Assembly: GCF_004010195.1 (NCBI RefSeq) | Contig: NC_057751.1 | Location: 7,840,137 to 7,904,136, forward strand | Direction of reading: 5' to 3' | DNA length: 64,000 bases | Source: Chiloscyllium plagiosum | Lineage: Eukaryota | In this document: piece after piece, positions 3,525-58,950 of the stretch | Numbering within the stretch: the stretch's first letter is position 1 | Layout: each line of letters opens with the position of its first letter | Made by a program: the position numbers and the translations under genes | Notes under the pieces: generated by a model | Database searches by the model: none | Told to the model about the DNA's origin: nothing | Seen by the model: the letters and a program-made list of their open reading frames with translations, nothing else

Positions 3525-4865
3525 AAAGGACAAAGAACAAAGAACAGCACAGCAACAGGCCCTTCGGCCCACAAGACCACACTAACACATGATGCCTTTC
3601 TAAACTGCAAATCTTTCCCTCTACTCGGCCTGTATCCTGTATTCCCTGCCTATTCAGCTCTCTGTCAAGATGCCTGTTAACTGTTGCTTGAGTATCCAAC
3701 TGTGTCACCTCTTCTGGCAGCGTATTTCAGGCACTTAATATTCTTATCTCTCACATCTTCTTTAAACTTACCCTGCTTTACATTAAAACTATGTCCCCCG
3801 TGTTATCAGCATTTATACCCTGGGGAAAAAAGGCACCACCATCCATTCTCGTAATTTGCAAACTTCTATCAAGTCTCCAATCTCTCTTCACGGCTTCCGT
3901 CCTCCAACCGGGTGAATCGTTTCTGCACCCTATCCAAAGCCACCAGATCCTCTGGTTGTATGGCAAAATAACCGCACACAAGACTCCAAATGTGGCTGAA
4001 CCAATGTTCTATACAGCTGTAACATGACTTGCCAATTTTTATACTCTGTGCCCCGACCGGTGAAGGCAAGCATGCCATATGTCTTATCGATCACCTTATC
4101 CATTTTTGTTGATACTTTCAGGGCACCATGGACCTGTATGCCTAGGTCCCTCAATATGTTGATGCTATGAAGAGTTCTGACATTTACTGCACACTTCCCT
4201 CCTCCATTAGGTCTTCCAACACACATCGCCTCACATTTGTCCAGATTAATTGCGAACTGCCCTCGTCTCCAGCCTACCTTCATCCTGCTGTATCCTCTGA
4301 CAATCCTCCTCACTATGCGCAGCTCCCCTAACCTGCGTGACATCTACAAACGTACTGATCACAGGCCATCTGTAGTTACCTCCAAATCATTTATATATAT
4401 TACAACCAACACAGATCCCAGTACTGTGTGGGGTCACAGATCTCCGGTCAGAAAAACACCCTTCCACTACTAAACACAATGTAGTATGACTAAGTCAGTT
4501 CTATATTCATCTTGGTGAGTCAATGTGGAGCCCATATGGCTTTACCTTGTGTATCAGCCTACCACGAGGGACCTTGTCAAATGCCTTGCTCAAGTCCATA
4601 CAGACAACATCCACTGCTCTTCCTTGATCAATCATCTTTGTCATTTCCTCACAAAAACTCAAATCAAGTTTGTGAGACACGACCTCCCCTGGCTGCCTAT
4701 CACTAATAAATCCATGTATTTCCGAATGAGAGTAAATCCTATCAATAAGAATCTTCTCCAATAATTTCCCTAACACTGACGTAAACCTCACCAGCCTGAA
4801 ATTTCCCAAATTATCCTTTTTATCCTTCTTAATCAAAGGAAAAACTTGGCTATCCTCCAGTCCTC
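3525..4865 (-). mobile_element. CR1 LINE RT fragment(s), frameshifted
   Basis: ORF track gives NFRLVRFTSVLGKLLEKILIDRI, AVDVVCMDLSKAFDKVPRGRL and VMLQLYRTLVQPHLESCV, typical CR1 RT motifs; (aagaaca) tail at ~3530. Confidence 0.88.
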
Positions 4866-6363
4866 TCAAAGAAAACAATGCTAGCTTTTCCCGTATGACC
4901 ATACCCCGTGATCAACTCAGTTACAAAAATCTCAGCCAGATAAATATAGTCATTATGTGGGCTCAACATATAGTGGAAATCCTAGTGAGAGTACAGAAGA
5001 TATGAGGAGCCACCAATGACAGAGCTTCCAGTGGAAAAAGGGAAATATCCAGAGAAAGAACTCTAGAGGTGGCACAAGGAAACTCATCCCAGACTGCAGG
5101 GTATGAGAAAGAGAAGTATGCACCTCATCTCATCTGTCAGATGTGTCTGAAAGGGTCACATGGAATCATCTTTACACACAGTAACTCTTCTCACACAGGT
5201 CAATACGCCAGTCATTGGCACCAAGCTAACTCAAAAATCAATCTGCATTTTGGTGCCACCAAGAGGGGATGGTGTGCCTGGACAATGAGAGAAGTCTCTG
5301 ATCCTCTCTGAGTATTCAGTGTTATTGTTTCAAGCCGAAACCCCCAAGCTAACTTAGCAAGCAAGCGCTTGGCTGCTTTGTCCCAAAGAGGTTTTGTGCT
5401 GCTCAAGTAATATGTCAACACCCCACCCTGCCAAAATTTGAGGAATAAATCTCGTGCTTTGATAAGTAAAAGAATTTCCACTCAAAATATGCTGCGTGCA
5501 ACAGGCATTTTCTGCTTTTGTTGTTGATTGCAAATGTTGGCATTTTCTCCATTCTCTTGTTAACATCTTGTGTTGTTCTTTCAGAACATTGAAAATATAC
5601 GCTGAACATCCAGTCTGGAGAAGTAATCACTCATATTGTGTAGTGTGTTGCAATAATTGACAAATCCACAAGGATGCGAAAGGCCAAAGTGCTTGAGAAT
5701 AACACTATGATTTGAAGTATTAGCTGCAACAAGTAATTATCTAAGTGCTCCATTTAGAGAATGCATGTGAACAGCTGCTTTGTTGCTGCACAGAGCATTC
5801 AGGAGCTAACGTAGGTCAACATCGAGGCAAGAGGTAGAGGATACATCTTTCAGCATGTTTTCTCACGAAGCTATTCGACAAAGTGTCAAGTCCTTCACTA
5901 AGGACTGGTGCTGAAACAAATCCATCACTTGCGTTAACCAATTGCTTGTGTTAACTAATCTCAGGGAAATATAACTGCACCCCTCTCCCCTTACAAATTC
6001 ATCACCGCTGCCCCTTCTCCTTAGCAAACACAACCCTTATGCCACTGAACAGTTACCCAGAAAATGTTGAGCACATCCAATTCCTGTGTAATAATGCAAA
6101 TGAACATGTTCTCTCTCACCACACCCACCTAGCGTGACCGACTGAATTCCCCGACACTCTGACTTCCCTCAAAACTCTTTGCAGCCCTTGGACTCACCCC
6201 AAGCACTCGCTCATCTCCAACCCTCTGATTCTATTCACCCAGTCTCCAACCTCACAGTTCGCCCCACTCTGTCTCCCCTCTCAATCTTTCAATGAAAACC
6301 CCTCCATGTGGCACTGCGACTGCAGCCCTGGTAAAGCTTAGCACCCTCCACTGCTCCATCTCC

Positions 6364-16704: not shown

Positions 16705-16928
16705 TTTGGAGATGCCGGTGTTGGACTGGGATGTACAAAGTTAAAAATCACACAACACCAGGTTATAGTCCAGCAGGTTTAATTGGAAGCACACTAGCTT
16801 TCGGAGCGACGCTCCTACATCAGGTGATTGTTCACTTGACACTTGAACAATCACCTGAGGAGCGTCGCTCCGAAAGCTAGTGTGCTTCCAATTAAACCTG
16901 TTGGACTATAACCTGGTGTTGTGTGATC
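16705..16928. mobile_element. Penelope-type fold-back element, family B, with 13-bp TSD
   Basis: Near-perfect hairpin of about 90-bp arms (16747-16927), about 42-nt tail on the left; TSD cttacttcaaagg at 16692-16704 and 16929-16941; damaged hammerhead cores (ggagcgtcgctccgaaagcta) on both strands. Confidence 0.85.
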
Positions 16929-21636: not shown

Positions 21637-21904
21637 CACGTAGAGATTTGAAGAGGAGGATGGATCAGAGAGTCACAGAATGATGCCACTTGGCCTGCCA
21701 TTGCCATGCTAACCCTCTGCAAGAGCAACACAGTTGGTCCAACCTCCCCCATCATCATCCTGCAACCCTGCACGTAGAGATTTGAAGAGGAGGATCGATC
21801 AGAGAGTCACAGAATGATGCCACTTGGCCTGCCATTGCCATGCTAACCCTCCGCAAGAGCAACACAGTTGGTCCAACCTCCCCCATCATCATCCTGCAAC
21901 CCTG
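21637..21904. repeat. Tandem duplication, 2 x 134 bp
   Basis: Units 21637-21770 and 21771-21904 differ at only two positions (tggatc/tcgatc, ctctgc/ctccgc). Confidence 0.95.
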
Positions 21905-22531
21905 CCAATCTGTCCTCTCGAGAATACAGTCCTTTCAAAAGCTGTGTCTTAATCTACCTCCACCAAACTTCCGTGTAAGGCAACTTTGAAAGCAAAATGC
22001 ATCCTGGCTGGGAGCAGTCTAGGTCAGCGATGACAGAGATGTTAATTTTGTAGTCAAGTGTCAGAAATGACTGCATGAAATGCATCTGCTTCTTCTCCCA
22101 AGTGTCATTACAAAAACACAGATAGTTTTCATAAATCAGTGACTAATACTTGGCATGAGAGGACTTAGTTTGTTGGCAGCGTATGTGTTTTTTTTCTCTC
22201 TCCTCTCCTCTTCCTTTGGCCCCAGTCCAGGAGTAAGGTTGGATATCAGCTCTGTTGTGTCGGGTAAAATACCGTAATGCTCCATTTGTGGAACACAGCT
22301 GGGCTAGCCAGTGCTTCCCAGTACCTTTCCATCCTCTCCTGGTTTCCCCTTTGGAGGGTCGGTGCAGATTCAATGGGTCGGATGGCCTCATTCTGCACAG
22401 TCAGGATGCTATGATTCTATACAGATGCTGTTGACTGGAACAGCATTTATTGTCTGCCCTTAAGTGCCCGGACTGAGGGAATGAACACTGGGGAGAGGGA
22501 GGCCATTCAGACAGACATGTAGAAAATCAGA

Positions 22532-31200: not shown

Positions 31201-32052
31201 CAATGGGTAGAAGAGCAGATCAGAGGCTAGGAAATATGCAGCAAGTAACTCACCCCCTGACTACCCAAAGCCTGTCTACCAAGTCAGGAGTATGACTCGC
31301 GTCAATGAGTGCAACTCCAATTGAACTCAAGAAGCTGGACAGCATCCACGATAAAACAGCCTGCTAATGGGTACCCTGATTAAAAACCTTCACCATGCAC
31401 TCCCATTACCACCAGTGGCAGCTGTGTGTGCACCAACTACAAGAGGTATTCCAACAACTCATCAAAGCTCTTCCGACAGCAGTCTTGGAAGGACAAGGGC
31501 AACAGACACCTCGGAGCAGCACCTGCAAACTAACCTCCAAGCTAACCACTATTGTGACTCATAACTATAATCTGTTTGGACATTTGTGTTTAAACACCAG
31601 AACAAGATGGATTCTCCTGGACCAGAGGTAGGCACATTATTGCATTTTCCAATTTTCCTTTGTACCTGCTCTGACACATGTCCATGGACATCACATCCTG
31701 TGGTGGGACTGATTGCAGATCATCTGGAGTAAAAGGAGCAGACACTAGGAGTGCACCACAACTCTTGTAAATATCATTGTTTGAACACATTATGACAAAC
31801 CTCCAGGAAAGATGGGACTTGAATACAGAGTTCCTGGCTGAAAGGTAGGTGGACAACAACTGAATCCAAGGCCTCTCCAATGAGCAATGTTTGAGGTAAA
31901 CCACTGTAACCAGGAAGAGAAATTCGACTTAATGATGAGAAATAGTTTACCATGTGATAACAATAGACACAAGTTACATTGACGAGTTGGGAAAAATTGA
32001 GTGGCTCCCAGACGAAACACAACTGTTCCTGGCAGGACCCTCATCATTGCAT

Positions 32053-32430
32053 AAGATAGAGGAGCAGATAGAGGCCAGTCAGCCCATCCAGGCTGCTCCA
32101 CCATTCAATCATATCTGATAGGTTTTTCAATTCCATTCTTCTGCCCGCTCCCATAACCTTTGATTGCCCCGGAACTGATCAACTATCACTCTCTTCAAGA
32201 CCATCAAAGACATGTTCACAGAGTCACCACCCTCTGGCTGAAGAGATTCCTCCTCAGCTCAGTTCTAAAGGGTCTTCCCTTCACTCTGAGACTACACCCT
32301 CGGGTCCTCTTTTCACTCCTGAGTGGAAACATCATCTCCACGTCCACACTATCCAGTCCTCTCAGTATTTCGTAAGCTTCAATGAAATACCTCTCCCTCT
32401 TCTAAACTCCAGTGAGTGCAGACCCAGCGT
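32053..32430 (-). mobile_element. CR1 LINE 3' fragment
   Basis: cataagataggagcaga tail and caccctctggctgaagagattcctcctc segment, cf. 58500-58950. Confidence 0.7.
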
Positions 32431-32638
32431 CCTCAAGAGCACACCACAGACTTTAATAGTGCACACCACAGACTAAATGCCAGAGGAAACACCACAGAAG
32501 TGCTTCACAGGAGGCTCCCTCTTCTAAACTCCAGTGAGTGCAGACCCAGCGTCCTCAAGAGCACACCACAGACTTTAATAGTGCACACCACAGACTAAAT
32601 GCCGGAGGAAACACCACAGAAGCGCTTCACAGGAGGCT
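32393..32638. repeat. Tandem duplication, 2 x 122 bp
   Basis: Units start at 32393 and 32515 (ctccctcttctaaactccagtgagtgcagacc...). Confidence 0.92.
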
Positions 32639-32718
32639 TCCAAGCACTGAGGATGTCACCTAGACAGGGGACGAAACGTTTGCAACAAAAACTTCCAGCT
32701 CGGCGAACAGAACCACAG
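32585..32718 (+). mobile_element. Short hammerhead-bearing element, family D, probably Penelope-derived
   Basis: Flanked by cagactttaa(t/c)agtgc at 32569-32584 and 32719-32734; contains a hammerhead core. Confidence 0.7.
32644..32683 (+). ncRNA. Minimal type I hammerhead ribozyme motif
   Basis: gca CUGAGGA u guc-a-ccu-agac-agg-g-gac GAAAC GUU ugc: helix I gca/ugc, 6-bp helix II with one mismatch, ACGU helix III. Confidence 0.78.
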
Positions 32719-34266: not shown

Positions 34267-34974
34267 CATGAGAGAAATGTGGAAAGAAAGAGTGTTTGGT
34301 GGCGTGATGTAAAGATAACAATCTCTCCCCGAACATCAGCAGAATGAAAGAGCTGGTTATTGGCTTCAGGAAGCAAGGAGGGCGGCCCGCTTGATTCTAC
34401 AGTGGTCGAGATAGTCGACAGCGTCAGGTTCCCAGGAGTGACAGTCCCAACAATCCGGCCTGATCCACCCACATTGAGGCACCGATAAAGAAGGCAAAGC
34501 AACACCTCCTCTTCGGCAGGAGGTTAAGGAAATTCAGCATGTCTGTAAGGACTCTCACCAACGTTTACTGGTGCACCATAGAAAGCATTCTATCTGGATG
34601 TATCACGGCTTGGTCAGGTAACTGCTCTGCCCAGAACCGTAAGAAATTACAGAATGTTGTGAAGACGGCCCAGACCATCACACAAGCCAACCTTCCAGCT
34701 GTTGACTCCACCTACATTTCTCATTGCCTCAGAAAGTCAGCTAACTTCATCAAAGACCCCTCCCACCCCGGTTGTATCCCCTTCCAACCTGCTCCATCAG
34801 GGAGGAGATAACACAAAAGCAAAAAAAAAAGTGCCAACATGTCCAAGAACAGCTTTTGCCCCACTGTTAATGGACGTCCAAATGAACCTGTCGAATTTCA
34901 AACCTAGCGCTGGTCTTGCATGTTGTGCACTTTCTTTGCAGCTATACTCCTTGCTCTGTTCTGTCATCCTACGA

Positions 34975-35180
34975 TGTGGAGCTGCCTGTGTTGGACTGGG
35001 GTGGACAACGTTAAAAATCTCACAACTCCAAGTTATAGTGCAACAGGTTTATTTGCCTGTCCTAGCTTTCAGAGCGCTGCTCCTTCATCAGGCAACAAGT
35101 TACCTGATGAAGGAGCAGCGCTCTGAAAGCAAGTACTTTCAAATAAACCTATTGGAGTATAACCTGGTGCTATGTGATTT
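34975..35180. mobile_element. Penelope-type fold-back element, family B, nested in the LINE 3' UTR
   Basis: Same family as 16705-16928; back-to-back hammerhead cores at 35062-35093 (-) and 35101-35135 (+). Confidence 0.82.
35062..35135. ncRNA. Divergent pair of minimal hammerhead motifs (AGCU helix III type)
   Basis: Minus: gc CUGAUGA a ggagc-agc-gcucu GAAAG CUA g (intact). Plus: uac CUGAUGA a ggagc-agc-gcucu GAAAG CAA gua (U16.1 mutated). Confidence 0.68.
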
Positions 35181-40659: not shown

Positions 40660-41232
40660 CTATCACCTCAACCTGCGATGATGAGGGCTTCCAAGCCCTC
40701 TGTTTCTTCCTCTCCCGGCATCCCCAGCAGTACCCGTGCACTGAAACTGTCATTCATTTGGCCAAACTGTTCCTCACCCTCAGTAATTTCTCCTGAGAAT
40801 CCTCCCACTTCCGCCAGACAAAACGGGTAGCCACGGGCACCCAATGGACCCCAGCTTTGCCTGTCTCTTTGTCAGTTACGTGGAACATTCCACCTTCCGC
40901 AGTTACATCGGCACCATTCCCCACCTTTTCCTCCACCACATCCATGCCTGTATAGGCTCCGAAGAGGAGGTTGAACATTTCATCAACTTCACTAACACAT
41001 TCCACCCCAACCCTAAATTCACCTGGACCATCTCAGACACCCCCCTCCCCTTCCCCGACCTCCCCATCTCCATCAACGGTGACTGACTCAACACAGACAA
41101 CTACAAATCCATTGACTCCCACAGCTACCTGGACTACACCTCCTCCCACCCTGCCTCCTGTAAAAACGCTATCCTTCCAGAACCCCACTCTCGACACTGA
41201 TCTCCAGCATCTGCAGTCCTCACTTTTTCCTA
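40660..41232 (+). mobile_element. Penelope-like element RT fragment fused to the family A terminus
   Basis: PSFACLFVSYVEHSTFRSYIGTIPHLFLHHIHACIG...FINFTNTFHPNPKFTWTISDTPLPFPDL, then YKSIDSHSYLDYTSSHPASCKNAI (PLE RT/thumb); joined directly to ccactctcgacactgatctccagcatctgcagtcctcactttttcc. Confidence 0.88.
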
Positions 41233-42044
41233 GCCATTAAGGTCCTGCCCAGTCTGCCATTAACAGGATAGCCACCTTCAAATGGACTGGAGGACCACAA
41301 TGTTTCCTTCACCCTTACATGGGACGTTGGCATTTGGTGTCCATCACAAAGTGACCCTTAAACCCAAGTGGGTCTAGTGCCACAGTTGACAAGGTAGTTG
41401 AAAATGAACCACAAATACCTTGGGGTGCAGAGGTATTGTCTCTACCTTTGGTTCAGAAGGTCTGGGTTCAAGTCCTGCTAGTATACATGTCACAGCAGTT
41501 AATTAACAAGTTAGTTCAGTGAACCACATTCTTGTGGCTCTGAAATCACACATGGACCAGGCCCAGTGAGGATGGAGGATTTCTCTCCTGGAGTGACATG
41601 AGTAAATCAGCTGGGATTTTACAGGAATTGGGTGAGAGTTTCACAGTCACCATACTGAGGGTTGCTTTAATTATAGATTCACAAACTGAATTTCAACGCC
41701 ACCAAATACGGTGTTGGGATTTGTAACCTGCCTCCAGAGCCTTAGTCTGGGCCACAGGATGAGACAGCTACTGACATAACCACTGGGGCACTGAGACTTG
41801 GTCATTAAATCCACATGATGGAAGTTTGTAACATAATAACAGTTTGGTGAGTTGTTAGATTGAAAAGTAGATTTGACTGGGGCTCAGGGTGTTTGGTAGT
41901 GCGTGGCTCTACATAGCTTTTAGAAAAAGGGTCAGCAAAAACAAAGCATTCCAATACATGACCTGCATTGAGCTCAATGTCTCATCAAGTTACCCCGTGC
42001 GATAACTGCAGCTTATTGCAGACTTGCAGACCTACGTGGGTTGA

Positions 42045-45169: not shown

Positions 45170-45625
45170 AAACAAAGAACACCTAAAGTGCAGAAGCAGG
45201 CCATTCGGCCCATCAAGTCTACACCAACCGTCCGAAGGGAATCTCACCCAGACACAACCCCCTCTTCTATCCCTGTAACCCTGCATTTTCTATGACTAAT
45301 CTGCTGATCCTTGAACACTATGGGTAATTTAGCATGGTCTAGATTAGAGTGGTGCTGGAAAAGCACAACAGTTCAGGCAGCATCCGAGGAGCAGTAAAAT
45401 TGACTTTTCGGGCAAAAGCCCTTCATCAGGAATAATTTAGCATGGCCAACCCATCCTAACCTCCACAACTCTGGACTGTGGGAGGAAACCGGAGCACCCG
45501 GATGAAACCCACGCAGACATGAGGAGAATGTGCAAACTCCTCACAGTTGCTCAAGGCTGGAGTGGAACGCAGGTCCCTGCCACTGTGAGGCAGCGGTGCT
45601 AACCACTAAGCCACTGCGACACCCA
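45170..45625 (-). mobile_element. HE1/V-SINE interrupted by a hammerhead element
   Basis: SINE sequence is continuous once 45338-45445 is removed. Confidence 0.82.
45338..45432 (-). mobile_element. Family A single-arm element with 13-bp TSD and hammerhead motif
   Basis: TSD taatttagcatgg at 45325-45337 and 45433-45445; minus-strand uuc CUGAUGA a gggc-uuuu-gccc GAAAA GUC at ~45399-45432. Confidence 0.85.
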
Positions 45626-49434: not shown

Positions 49435-50165
49435 GGATAAGAAACAAAGAAAATCAGAATAGATAGAGGTCCTTTTTGGTTATTCCGCCATTCCATATGA
49501 TCTTGGCTGATCATCCAACTCCATATCCTAGTCACACTTTGCCTCCATAAGCTCTAAGAGGAACTCCAAACCCCTTTTTGAAAACAGTCAATGTTTCAGT
49601 CTCAAATGCTTTCTCAGGCAGAAGATTCCACAGCTCACCATTGTGAAGAAGTTGCTCATTGTTAGTCCTAAGTGGTTTTTCATGTATCTTTGGACTGTGA
49701 CAAAAACAAGTAATAGCTGGCAAAACTCAGCAGGTCTGGCCGAATCTGTGGGGAGAAAGCAGAGTTTACATTTTGAATCCGGTGACTCTTCATCAGAACA
49801 CGAAGTCATCGGACTCAAAATATTAACTCCGCTCTCTCACCACAGATGCTGCCAGACCTGCTGAGTTTTGCCAGCTCTACCTTGTTTTTGTTTCAGATCC
49901 CCAGTGTCCACAGTTCTTTGTTTTACCTGAGACTCTGACCCCTGGTCCTAGACTTCCCGTCATCAGGAACATCCTTCCTGCATTTACCCAGTGTAGTCCT
50001 GTTAGAATTTTATAGGTTTCTATGAGATCTCCCCTCATTCTTACAAGCTCCAGGGAATGCAGTCCTAGCCAATCCAGGCTGCCTTTGTATATCAGTCCTG
50101 CCATCCCAGGAACCCGCCTAATAAACCTCTGTTGCACTTCCCCCACAGCCAGGAAGTCCTTCCTT
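49435..50165 (-). mobile_element. CR1 LINE 3' end, interrupted at ~49700-49924
   Basis: ORF VQQRFIRRVPGMAGL...RMRGDLIETYKILTGL; sequence resumes on the other side of the insertion. Confidence 0.82.
49700..49924. mobile_element. Penelope-derived fold-back element, family E
   Basis: Inverted arms agctggcaaaactcagcaggtctggc / gccagacctgctgagttttgccagct; minus-strand guu CUGAUGA a gaguc-accg-gauuc aaaaugua aac (decayed core); tail on the right. Confidence 0.72.
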
Positions 50166-56803: not shown

Positions 56804-57587
56804 CCCCACCAAAACACAGCTCAATGTCAATATTTTGCCAATGGTCTACCAGAATACAAACAAATTCACCATTACTGTTGCCACTTTTTGAATTTAGACA
56901 TGAAATATGAAACGTCAGAAAACTACATGTTCACACAAAAGACACATCTGTTCAAAAAAAACACCAAAAACAAACATTTTACCAAGTTCAAAATTTTCTG
57001 CACAGCACTTTTTTTTTTGGACTATTTTCTAATCTTTCAAAAGAGAGAGAGGGCAGGATTTTCTCAGTCATTAATATTTGATGCATCAGTATGTGGTTTT
57101 GACTCAGTGTTATGTGGATATGAAATGCCATTTATTCGTTTGAGGCATTCTTGGACAACTGCACTCGGGGGATCCCGATGGAGTGAGACTTCCATCGTTG
57201 TAAAACACAATGATTCAAGTCAAATGGAGACACAACATTAAGGACATAAACAACAATTTTAACCGAGTGAAAAGCAAGTTTTTAACCTATACTTATTTAT
57301 TGAAAGGGGAATAAAGAATTGGAACAACGAGACATTGAACCCGTTTGTGAGATCTCAAACTGGATTTACACATGGAGCTATGTGAGCTGAGATAACAATG
57401 GTTGGAACGTGCTTTTGTCTGTGTTCATGGCTCACCAGGCAATATTTTTGCATGTCAGTCCAAAAATTGTGACCTTATTTACCTTCCTATCCCCTTTCCT
57501 CTCCCTCCGGGTTTTCGGTACATAAAGTAGGGTGTCACTAAGATACAGGACCAATTCAATGCTGGCGTTATGATCCTTTCAGTTGCA

Positions 57588-58423
57588 TGTGAAACTGTGG
57601 TTAAGGTCAGTTGTTTCAGGTTGACAATGTGCTACACCAGTGCTGAAAGAAGTTATCAATTTCATTTATCATTTACCTCCTTGAGACATTGCAAATGAAA
57701 ACAATCTCACATCTGTTGGTGGGACCTTGCTGTGTGTGTCAGTGCAGTTCTGAGTGCTCAGTCTTTTATTTTGGTTCTTAGTTTCGCATTAGCTTTTTAC
57801 TTTGCACAGTCCTGCAGATGTTGTCTGAATCCAGTGGACAAACCCCAAGGCAGGAGTTGCCGGCAAGAATTGGTGGGAGACGGAACTTCGCAGTCTGAGC
57901 CACAGCAATCCAAGACGTGGCGACTGCAGTGTAGAGTCATACAGTACAGAAGCAGACTCGTCGGTCCAACCAGTCCACGCCTACCATAACCCCAAAGTCC
58001 CATCTTCCTGCACTTGGCCCTTGAATGCGAAATAGGAGCAAGATTGGACCACTCAGGCCTCATGTTGAAAAGTGTGGTGCTGGAAAAGCGCAGCAGGCCA
58101 GGCAGCATTCGAGGAGCAGGAGAATCGACGTTTCGGGCATGAGCCCTTCTTCAGGAATGACTTTAGACAATATTCGCAGGATTGTGCAAAGTAAAAAGCT
58201 AATGCAAAACTAAGAACCAAAACAAAAGACAGAGCACTTAGGGAACAGCACTGACACACACAGCAAGATCCCACCAACAGAGGTCAGTTGTTTTTTTTCA
58301 TTTGCAATGTGTCAAGGAACGTTGGTTGAGGAGGGTAAATGATAAATGAAATTGATAACTTCTTTCAGCACTGGTGTAGCACATTGTCAACCTGAAACAA
58401 CTGACCTTAACCACAGTTTCACA
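57588..58423. repeat. Long inverted duplication (arms 57588-57826 and 58165-58423)
   Basis: Arms are reverse complements; the outer 90 bp are identical and the inner part has substitutions and indels. Confidence 0.93.
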
Positions 58424-58463
58424 CTTTTCTTATCTCCAGCATCTGCAGTCCTCACTTTCTCCT
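58066..58463. mobile_element. Family A element containing an inverted copy of flanking DNA, 16-bp TSD
   Basis: TSD cactcaggcctcatgt at 58050-58065 and 58464-58479; arm 58066-58160 with an intact minus-strand hammerhead (58122-58159); tail ~58430-58462. Confidence 0.85.
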
Positions 58464-58499
58464 CACTCAGGCCTCATGTCTGCTCCACCATCCTACAAG

Positions 58500-58950
58500 A
58501 TCAGAAGGCCACAAGATCAAGGAACAGAATTAGGCCATTCAGCCCATCAGATCTGCTCCACTGTTGGATCACAGCTGATATGGTTCTCAACCCCATTCTC
58601 TTGCCTTCTCCCCATAACCTTTGATTCCCTTACCAATAGAGAACCTTACTATCACTGTCAAAAATACACTCCACGACTTGGCCTCCACTGCCCTCGATGG
58701 CAATGAGTTCCACGAATTCGCCACCCTCTGGATGAAGAAATTCTTCAAGTCACTTCTAAATGGTTGTCCCTTCACTCTGAGGCTCAGGTCCAAGACTCGC
58801 TGATGAGTGGAGACTTCTCCACGTCCACTCCATCCAGTCTCTCAGTATTCAGTTTCAGTCAGGTCCGCCCCTCGTTCCTCCGAACTCTGAGTACAGACTC
58901 AGAGTTCTCAACCATTCCTTCATCCCTGGAATCATTCTTGTTCTTCGGCC
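58500..58950 (-). mobile_element. CR1 LINE 3' end
   Basis: ORF SLRVKGQPFRSDLKNFFIQRVANSWNSLPSRAVEA. Confidence 0.85.

What the first reader, a model, noticed from the sequence alone, without database searches (positions are those of the whole stretch)
57588..58479. Hammerhead element that captured an inverted copy of its own flanking DNA
Seen: between perfect 16-bp TSDs (58050-58065, 58464-58479) lie a family A arm, then about 260 bp that is the reverse complement of unique DNA at 57588-57826 (225-460 bp upstream), then the family A tail. The second arm expected in the palindrome is replaced by local genomic sequence. Inference: template switching onto nearby DNA or host RNA during PLE integration, or later hairpin-triggered repair. 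Either would make these elements generators of local inverted duplications.
Basis: partly seen in the sequence, partly recalled or inferred. Interest (0 to 1): 0.72.

Follow-up and report, generated by a model that had tools for sequence, protein, structure and literature searches.

The report
Penelope insertion with two-age local duplication
A short dead copy of a jumping gene carries a back-to-front copy of neighbouring DNA that looks to have formed in two steps, an old copying slip during insertion and a later small inversion, which makes it a neat single fossil of known processes rather than a new kind of element.

Summary
The structure is real: an exact 16-bp TSD, an antisense hammerhead arm of a Penelope-like family, 262 bp matching 57588-57829 inverted, and the family tail. 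Contigs of another individual span both inner junctions. But the copy has two ages. The 90 bp next to the tail are identical to the source (0 of 90 differ); the rest differs at 14 of 151 sites plus 4 gaps. In 3 of 3 runs from two related organisms, the left flank runs through the 90 bp straight into the 'captured' part and the arm: the inner segment lies the other way round and no second 90-bp copy shows. Best reading (0.5): fold-back copying during integration duplicated about 150-170 bp before these lineages split; a later inversion in this lineage duplicated the other 90 bp. Rivals: one 260-bp capture followed by flips and gene conversion (0.22), or chimeric contigs (0.13). Capture during integration in some form stands at about 0.85. 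The processes are described for LINE-1 and for Drosophila inversions; the host gene, if any, was not found. Long reads across the orthologous locus would decide.

The parts
57201..57587 (.). Left flank L, unique DNA
   Evidence: no second hit in window for 57200-57590; single contigs cover it in all 4 runs
57588..57677 (+). S, left copy: 90 nt identical to the reverse complement of 58334-58423 (young stratum)
   Evidence: joined to L and to U in contigs of organisms B and C
57678..57829 (+). U*, source-side copy of the old stratum; lacks 15 nt that U has at the S border
   Evidence: 14 of 151 sites and 4 gaps against U; longest exact run shared with U is 23 nt
57830..58049 (.). Y, spacer: unique 57830-57917, then old repeat fragments; its end is continuous with the TSD and the right flank as one old repeat
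   Evidence: bin 57837-57889 has no cover in 4 of 4 runs
58050..58065 (+). Target-site duplication, left copy
   Evidence: (16 of 16)
58066..58160 (-). Family A arm (Penelope-like terminal repeat without tail), antisense to the tail; carries a minimal hammerhead: CUGAAGA core 58154-58148, 4-bp stem II, GAAAC-GUC 58134-58127
   Evidence: sequence, alignment, stem II in fold; Rfam gives no match at gathering score
58162..58333 (-). U, inverted copy, old stratum (172 nt)
   Evidence: arm-U junction spanned by contigs in X15, X5, X7, X12
58334..58423 (-). S, right copy (inverted); its last 4 nt CACA also fit the family sequence before the tail
   Evidence: S-tail junction spanned by X15 record 14
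58424..58463 (+). Family A tail with a few bases of the arm base, sense orientation
58464..58479 (+). Target-site duplication, right copy
   Evidence: X15 record 15

Best explanation
Two events. (1) Before organisms A, B and C split, a Penelope-like enzyme cut the target with a 16-nt stagger and primed reverse transcription from both ends: the right end copied the tail, the left end copied the arm to the 5' end of the RNA. The left strand, exposed by resection, folded back about 330 nt onto its own flank and copied U. The hairpin was opened by a nick near the S-U border and filled in, giving L-S-U-arm-(TSD, Y, U* inverted)-tail-TSD, with S single. (2) Later, in the lineage of A, the segment between the U/U* inverted pair was inverted by breaks or template switches at the base of that stem, staggered by 90 nt on the left; this duplicated S and put the TSD copies in direct orientation, giving the window. 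Shown: the parts, the two strata, the shared arm-U junction, the L-S-U-arm path in contigs of relatives. Inferred: both mechanisms, the right half of the relatives' arrangement, and the order of events. The element is a dead fragment with no sign of function.
For: Two strata with a sharp border. U/U* divergence 14 of 151 exceeds A-C 34 of 668 and A-B 23 of 637 (U/U* against A-C p 0.055), like the 87-94% between arms of four palindromic copies; 0 of 90 bounds S at under 3.3%. At 2 listed sites (58171, 58239) relatives carry the U* letter, so those changes arose in A's U. X5 record 16 (1070 nt) and X12 record 2 (324 nt) each run L-S and then 58333 to 58137 on the other strand; X7 records 24, 29, 28 tile the same path. 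Almost no depth on the right S copy in X5 and X12 (0.36, 0.13 in bin 58367-58419) and none on the left one in X7 (0 in 57625-57677), so each shows one S. Both S borders have short matches: CACA at S-tail, an imperfect TCCT at S-U*. Poseidon enzyme extends both strands and has two start sites that bound the tail (PMC11167929). Fold-back with top-strand cleavage beside a 5'-inverted LINE-1 is described (PMC11702581 Fig. S9B legend); inversions with a duplication at one breakpoint are described (PMC1885836).
Against: The predicted right-hand junction of relatives (U* to tail) was not seen, and Y has no cover in 4 of 4 runs, including organism A. Contigs come from simplified 31-mer graphs and cannot phase an identical repeat. 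A second S copy under 88% alike would not have been laid. X15 (organism A) has no cover over 57625-57889 and its contig passes the right S copy unbroken, which the window's arrangement does not predict. A-B against A-C is not significant (p 0.22), so the root is weak. No clear microhomology at the arm-U junction, where fold-back priming should have left one. The tidy TSD-arm-copy-tail look must be read as partly secondary.
Confidence: 0.5

Rival explanations
1. One capture, later recombination: all 260 bp were copied at integration (nascent strand displaced and joined to the tail through CACA). The inverted pair then recombined: the inner 656 bp flipped at least once (twice if C is the outgroup) and conversion homogenised S in lineage A, stopping at the 15-nt indel.
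For: TSD, arm and tail frame the copy exactly; the S-tail junction lies about 10 nt from the arm's priming point, as in twin priming (PMC11702581); Fig. S9C legend gives this outcome for LINE-1; inversions between inverted repeats recur in humans and apes (PMC3961182).
Against: Needs three events or more. Predicts a second S beside the tail in B and C and a 390-nt unique contig through Y; neither was laid in 3 of 3 runs, though a filter can hide records.
Confidence: 0.22
2. One capture plus conversion of S, no inversion: relatives have the window's arrangement, and their L-S-U-arm contigs are chimeras made when the assembler merged two S copies and dropped the short branches.
For: The U*-Y branch (270 words of 31) and the tail branch (34) are short and touch high-copy repeats; Logan contigs follow SPAdes-like simplification; X7 record 29 has about twice the depth of record 24 (19.3 against 9.36).
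Against: The U branch is shorter (199 words) and touches the higher-copy arm, yet is kept in 4 of 4 runs. Undisturbed copies share a 31-mer with chance 0.15 only. X5 and X12 show no doubling. The length cut-off used in this argument (9 times k) is recalled, not from a call.
Confidence: 0.13
3. An intact palindromic copy inserted first; its cruciform was later cut and the second arm was replaced by repair synthesis from the flank (polymerase-theta-type templated insertion).
For: 4 of 13 copies in the window are palindromes; the replaced part runs from the hairpin centre to near its base.
Against: U/U* divergence is in the same range as arm-to-arm divergence of other copies, so little time is left between the steps; does not explain the two strata or the relatives without added events.
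Confidence: 0.07
4. The left S copy in the window is an assembly or polishing artefact, or this allele is private.
For: X15 has no cover on the left S, U* or Y and its contig crosses the right S unbroken.
Against: L joined to S is seen in B and C; U* is 9% from U and cannot be a polishing echo; X15 holds only 0.51 of the stretch's words, so holes are expected.
Confidence: 0.05
5. The 240-260 bp is a dispersed repeat inserted twice by chance.
For: Some extra short pieces are laid on U (summed depth up to 281 in one bin); part of U recalls an old shark SINE (recalled, not tested).
Against: One hit in 64 kb; summed depth 5-30 on L and S against over a million on arm and tail; the copies end together at the element's parts; S-U is continuous with unique flank L in relatives.
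Confidence: 0.03

Closest known systems
Insertion units of endonuclease-bearing Penelope-like elements (PMC8557442, PMC3846280, PMC11167929, PMC4209133)
   Same: Minimal hammerhead in the terminal repeat, inverted 5'-truncated copy, one-sided 30-40-bp tail, TSD; host DNA captured between terminal repeats in Adineta vaga.
   Different: No ORF here; in the passages read the rotifer captures are not traced to the element's own flank, apart from a 304-bp piece of an insert found inverted upstream of one pLTR; no later inversion described.
LINE-1 insertions with fold-back inversions or inverted duplications of flanking DNA (PMC11702581 Figs S9B, S9C legends) and templated insertions (10.1101/2024.08.27.596794)
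   Same: Local DNA inverted or duplicated beside a two-ended (5'-inverted) insertion; size under about 250 bp.
   Different: Different enzyme class; germline fossil shared by three organisms, not a somatic or induced event; template 221-462 bp away against typically within 15 bp in the tumour set.
Inversions with inverted duplications from staggered breaks (Drosophila, PMC1885836)
   Same: Non-repetitive DNA duplicated in inverted orientation at one breakpoint, single in the outgroup arrangement; duplications from 46 bp up.
   Different: Here the inversion is under 1 kb and its ends sit at the base of an earlier inverted pair.
Recurrent inversions between inverted repeats (human, PMC3961182)
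   Same: Segment found in different orientation between related species.
   Different: Those repeats are described as large and highly identical; here 150-240 bp at about 90%.

Membership tests
Penelope-like element terminal repeat | Minimal hammerhead: CUGANGA, stem II, GAAA, palindromic stem III | tested here: met
   Read by eye on the minus strand 58160-58123; stem II forms (whole fold not better than shuffles, z 0.28); shared across copies
Penelope-like element terminal repeat | Match to a curated Rfam hammerhead model | tested here: not met
   0 matches at gathering score in the window
Penelope-like element terminal repeat | Inverted copy without tail plus direct copy with 30-40-bp tail | tested here: met
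   inverted arms stop before the tail in this and four palindromic copies
Penelope-like element terminal repeat | Target-site duplication | tested here: met
Penelope-like element terminal repeat | Link to an ORF with reverse transcriptase and GIY-YIG endonuclease | tested here: inconclusive
   No such ORF among 324 frames scanned (frames mostly inside window repeats were left out); no genome held
Penelope-like element terminal repeat | Self-cleavage of the RNA | not testable with these tools
   needs an in vitro assay
Retro-insertion with locally templated inverted duplication (LINE-1 type) | Inserted DNA has a single nearby source, inside the TSD | tested here: met
   tested in the window only, not genome-wide
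Retro-insertion with locally templated inverted duplication (LINE-1 type) | Microhomology at the fold-back priming point | tested here: inconclusive
   0-2 nt at arm-U, 4 nt at S-tail
Retro-insertion with locally templated inverted duplication (LINE-1 type) | Template typically within 15 bp of the site | tested here: not met
   221-462 bp here; typical value, not a strict criterion
Staggered-break inversion | Inverted duplication at a breakpoint that is single in the other arrangement | tested here: inconclusive
   One S seen in 3 of 3 relatives' runs, but contigs only
Staggered-break inversion | Both ancestral breakpoint junctions recovered in an outgroup | tested here: inconclusive
   Left junction seen (L-S-U); right junction not seen

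The most novel reading that the evidence does not exclude
Penelope-like integration in sharks often passes through a long fold-back intermediate that inverts and duplicates the flank in one step, and the short inverted pairs so made then seed secondary micro-inversions with fresh duplications. With very many copies per genome, these elements would be a steady, overlooked source of sub-kilobase inversions between species, each datable by its divergence strata.
Probability: 0.25. Interest if true: 0.62.

Novelty: new member of a known kind. Interest (0 to 1): 0.4.

Why it matters
How Penelope-like elements finish integration is stated as open in the papers read (PMC11167929, PMC8557442). A dated germline fossil that matches a fold-back route so far inferred for induced LINE-1 events bears on that step. 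It also warns that a clean TSD-arm-cargo-tail structure can be the product of two events, so that cargo size and direction of copying read from one genome may mislead. As one dead locus in non-coding DNA its own biological effect is probably nil.

Tried and rejected
Whole-genome copy count: no genome held. Rfam scan: 0 matches. Host gene and its strand, to test an RNA template: 324 stop-to-stop frames (322 of at least 55 aa outside window repeats, plus 2 over S) gave 2 Pfam hits, RVT_1 at 4510-4911 and ALKBH8_N at 34464-34808, neither near the locus; short exons would be missed, so DNA against RNA template stays open. S as an exon: no Pfam hit; organism C differs at 1 of 130 sites over 57548-57677 against 33 of 538 elsewhere (p 0.007) but B shows no such dip (p 0.76); post hoc, not relied on. 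Patchy depth on U* in X5, X7 and X12 as proof that relatives hold U*: rejected, since like extras occur on L in X5 and X7 and the depth arithmetic is not decodable. Absence of Y in relatives as a deletion: not accepted, the hole is also in organism A. Empty site: not found; all three organisms hold the arm-U junction. Joints table was swamped by family copies (540 rows not shown). 5' transduction from a paralogue by twin priming: needs a second locus, and L is orthologous; no sign. Reverse direction (source copied from the element): ends coincide with element parts, and S-U joins unique flank. Metagenome scan with a 21-nt S pattern: 0 matches. Earlier findings near the place, in relatives, by sequence and by a second word set: nothing. 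PMC9977147: passages held nothing on this.

Full report
Names used: L, left flank; S, 57588-57677; U*, 57678-57829; Y, 57830-58049; TSD, 58050-58065 and 58464-58479; arm, 58066-58160; U, 58162-58333; right S, 58334-58423; tail, 58424-58463.

Observation. The TSD copies are identical over 16 nt. Between them lie an arm of the window's hammerhead family in antisense, 262 nt that match 57588-57829 in reverse (86.3%, E about 3e-88) and the family tail in sense. A more sensitive self-search found no further copy of the 262 nt in the window. The DNA on either side of the insertion hits adjoining parts of one old repeat at 32047-32118, overlapping by the TSD (E 0.22 and 0.019), so Y, TSD and right flank were once continuous and the TSD is a target duplication. 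Of 13 family copies surveyed with 150 nt of flank, only this one holds unique local DNA; the hits at 45339-45445 are to the dispersed repeat into which that copy inserted.

Two ages. S and right S are identical at 90 of 90 sites. U* and U differ at 14 of 151 sites and by 4 gaps, one of 15 nt exactly at the S border (Fisher p 0.0013). With 18 events spread evenly over 241 columns, a clean run of 90 has chance 0.003. An intact 16-nt TSD at 9.3% divergence has chance 0.21, so it does not prove youth. The arm is 87 of 94 like its nearest copy, and arms within four palindromic copies are 87-94% alike, the same age class as U/U*.

The family. On the minus strand the arm reads CUGAAGA, a 4-bp stem, then GAAAC-GUC, the minimal hammerhead described for Penelope-like terminal repeats (PMC4209133; I read parts 1-2 of 4). 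Rfam finds nothing at gathering score and the monomer folds no better than shuffles. Inverted arms end before a tail of about 35 nt that only the direct copy bears, as described for these elements (PMC8557442, passages; PMC3846280, part 2 of 5 and passages). The anole Poseidon enzyme cleaves and extends both strands and has two start sites that bound the tail (PMC11167929, passages and second part of the main text). The window also holds arm-only and tail-only copies. No Penelope ORF was found here, so membership rests on the terminal repeat alone.

Other samples. No genome is held. A search of public runs listed 24, of which 18 hold part of the stretch, from organisms A, B and C. I laid 4 of them, all contigs, at 88% likeness. 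In X15 (A, a different study from the top holders) one contig spans 58134-58457 with 3 differences and an 11-nt gap at 58367, and one spans 58441-58548 with none; so arm-U, U-S, S-tail and tail-TSD are real. X15 has one contig on L ending at 57576 and nothing on 57625-57889. In X5 (B) a 1070-nt contig covers 57209-57677 and goes on, on the other strand, over 58333 to 58137. In X12 (C) a 324-nt contig does the same from 57548. In X7 (B) records 24, 29 and 28 tile that path, record 29 having 16 letters beyond 58423 that do not fit the tail. So 3 of 3 runs of relatives read L-S-U-arm, where the window reads L-S-U*. Each shows one S only at this likeness. All four runs hold the arm-U junction, so the old duplication precedes the split. 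Differences from the window: B 23 of 637, C 34 of 668, X15 6 of 685. At 58171 and 58239 relatives carry the letter of U* (at 58239 X5 has a gap). Bin 57837-57889 is empty in 4 of 4 runs; the tool warns that holes prove nothing. Summed depth is 5-30 on L and S, 6-281 on U and over a million on arm and tail.

Mechanism. Step 1, inferred: two-ended priming, then the arm-side strand folds back on the resected flank and copies U. A LINE-1 study infers this intermediate and two exits from it: cleavage of the top strand, which inverts the flank (Fig. S9A, B), or displacement of the new strand, which gives an inverted duplication (Fig. S9C) (PMC11702581; passages, section 7 and figure legends in part 3 of 5 of supplement 1; figures not seen). 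Cleavage near the S-U border with fill-in gives L-S-U-arm-(TSD, Y, U* inverted)-tail-TSD in one event, which is what the left half of the relatives' contigs shows. Step 2, inferred: an inversion with ends at the base of the U/U* stem (DNA fold of the inner segment -178 kcal/mol) and a 90-nt stagger on the left duplicates S and yields the window. One-sided inverted duplications at inversion breakpoints are described in Drosophila (PMC1885836, passages). This needs two events, no conversion, and explains why the perfect tract stops at the 15-nt offset. It would also leave Y and U* in relatives on a 270-word path between two high-copy repeats, which a SPAdes-like simplification (10.1101/2024.07.30.605881, passages) may drop; the cut-off of 9 times k is recalled.

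Against it. The right-hand junction of relatives was not seen. A contig cannot phase an identical repeat of 31 nt or more, and the window has 60 such shared words, all in S. The hole in X15 and its unbroken passage through right S fit none of the histories well. The root is weak (A-B against A-C p 0.22). No clear priming match is left at arm-U. The one-capture history fits the S-tail junction lying about 10 nt from the arm's priming point, as in twin priming, and recurrent flips between inverted repeats are known (PMC3961182, passages). I give 0.50 to two events, 0.22 to one capture with flips and conversion, 0.13 to one capture with chimeric contigs, 0.07 to later repair of a palindrome, 0.05 to an artefact of the left copy and 0.03 to a dispersed repeat.

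What is known. Templated copies of nearby DNA in LINE-1 insertions: 22 cases in one tumour set, typically under 250 bp and within 15 bp (10.1101/2024.08.27.596794, passages; its supplements are closed and Supplementary Fig. 4d may show longer distances). Host DNA between Penelope terminal repeats: Adineta. In the listings of eight searches (titles and abstract starts only) I saw no paper on a Penelope-like insertion with an inverted copy of its own flank followed by a second inversion; the library lacks most subscription papers. Earlier unchecked notes report three other local captures and one capture of another retroelement in this genome, so the capture itself seems to recur.

Verdict. Real; a new member of a known kind; interest 0.40.

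Noticed in passing
window 21637-21905 and 32393-32641: Two young head-to-tail duplications of 135 nt (98.5%) and 127 nt (97.6%).
   Followed up: no
window 45339-45445: Arm-only family copy, no tail, with a 13-nt TSD, inserted in another dispersed repeat.
   Followed up: partly
window 41175-41233: Tail-only family copy with about 20 nt of arm; no TSD of 7 nt or more found.
   Followed up: partly
window 57548-57677: Only 1 difference in 130 nt against organism C, where flanks differ by about 6%; not seen against B. Possible weak constraint; no Pfam hit.
   Followed up: partly
window 58367-58377: An 11-nt deletion inside the right S copy in another sample of organism A (X15 record 14).
   Followed up: no
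window 57448-57466: A 19-nt deletion in both runs of organism B.
   Followed up: no
window 16707-16927, 34977-35180, 49700-49891: Further short palindromes with exact inverted runs that are not family A by the searches run.
   Followed up: no
window 4510-4911 (-) and 34464-34808 (+): Pfam RVT_1 and ALKBH8_N hits; both probably decayed retroelement pieces (the second by recall).
   Followed up: no
window 58250-58345: Part of U and the 15-nt segment recalls an old shark SINE core (recalled, no call); if so the 15 nt are ancestral and the source is not wholly unique DNA.
   Followed up: no
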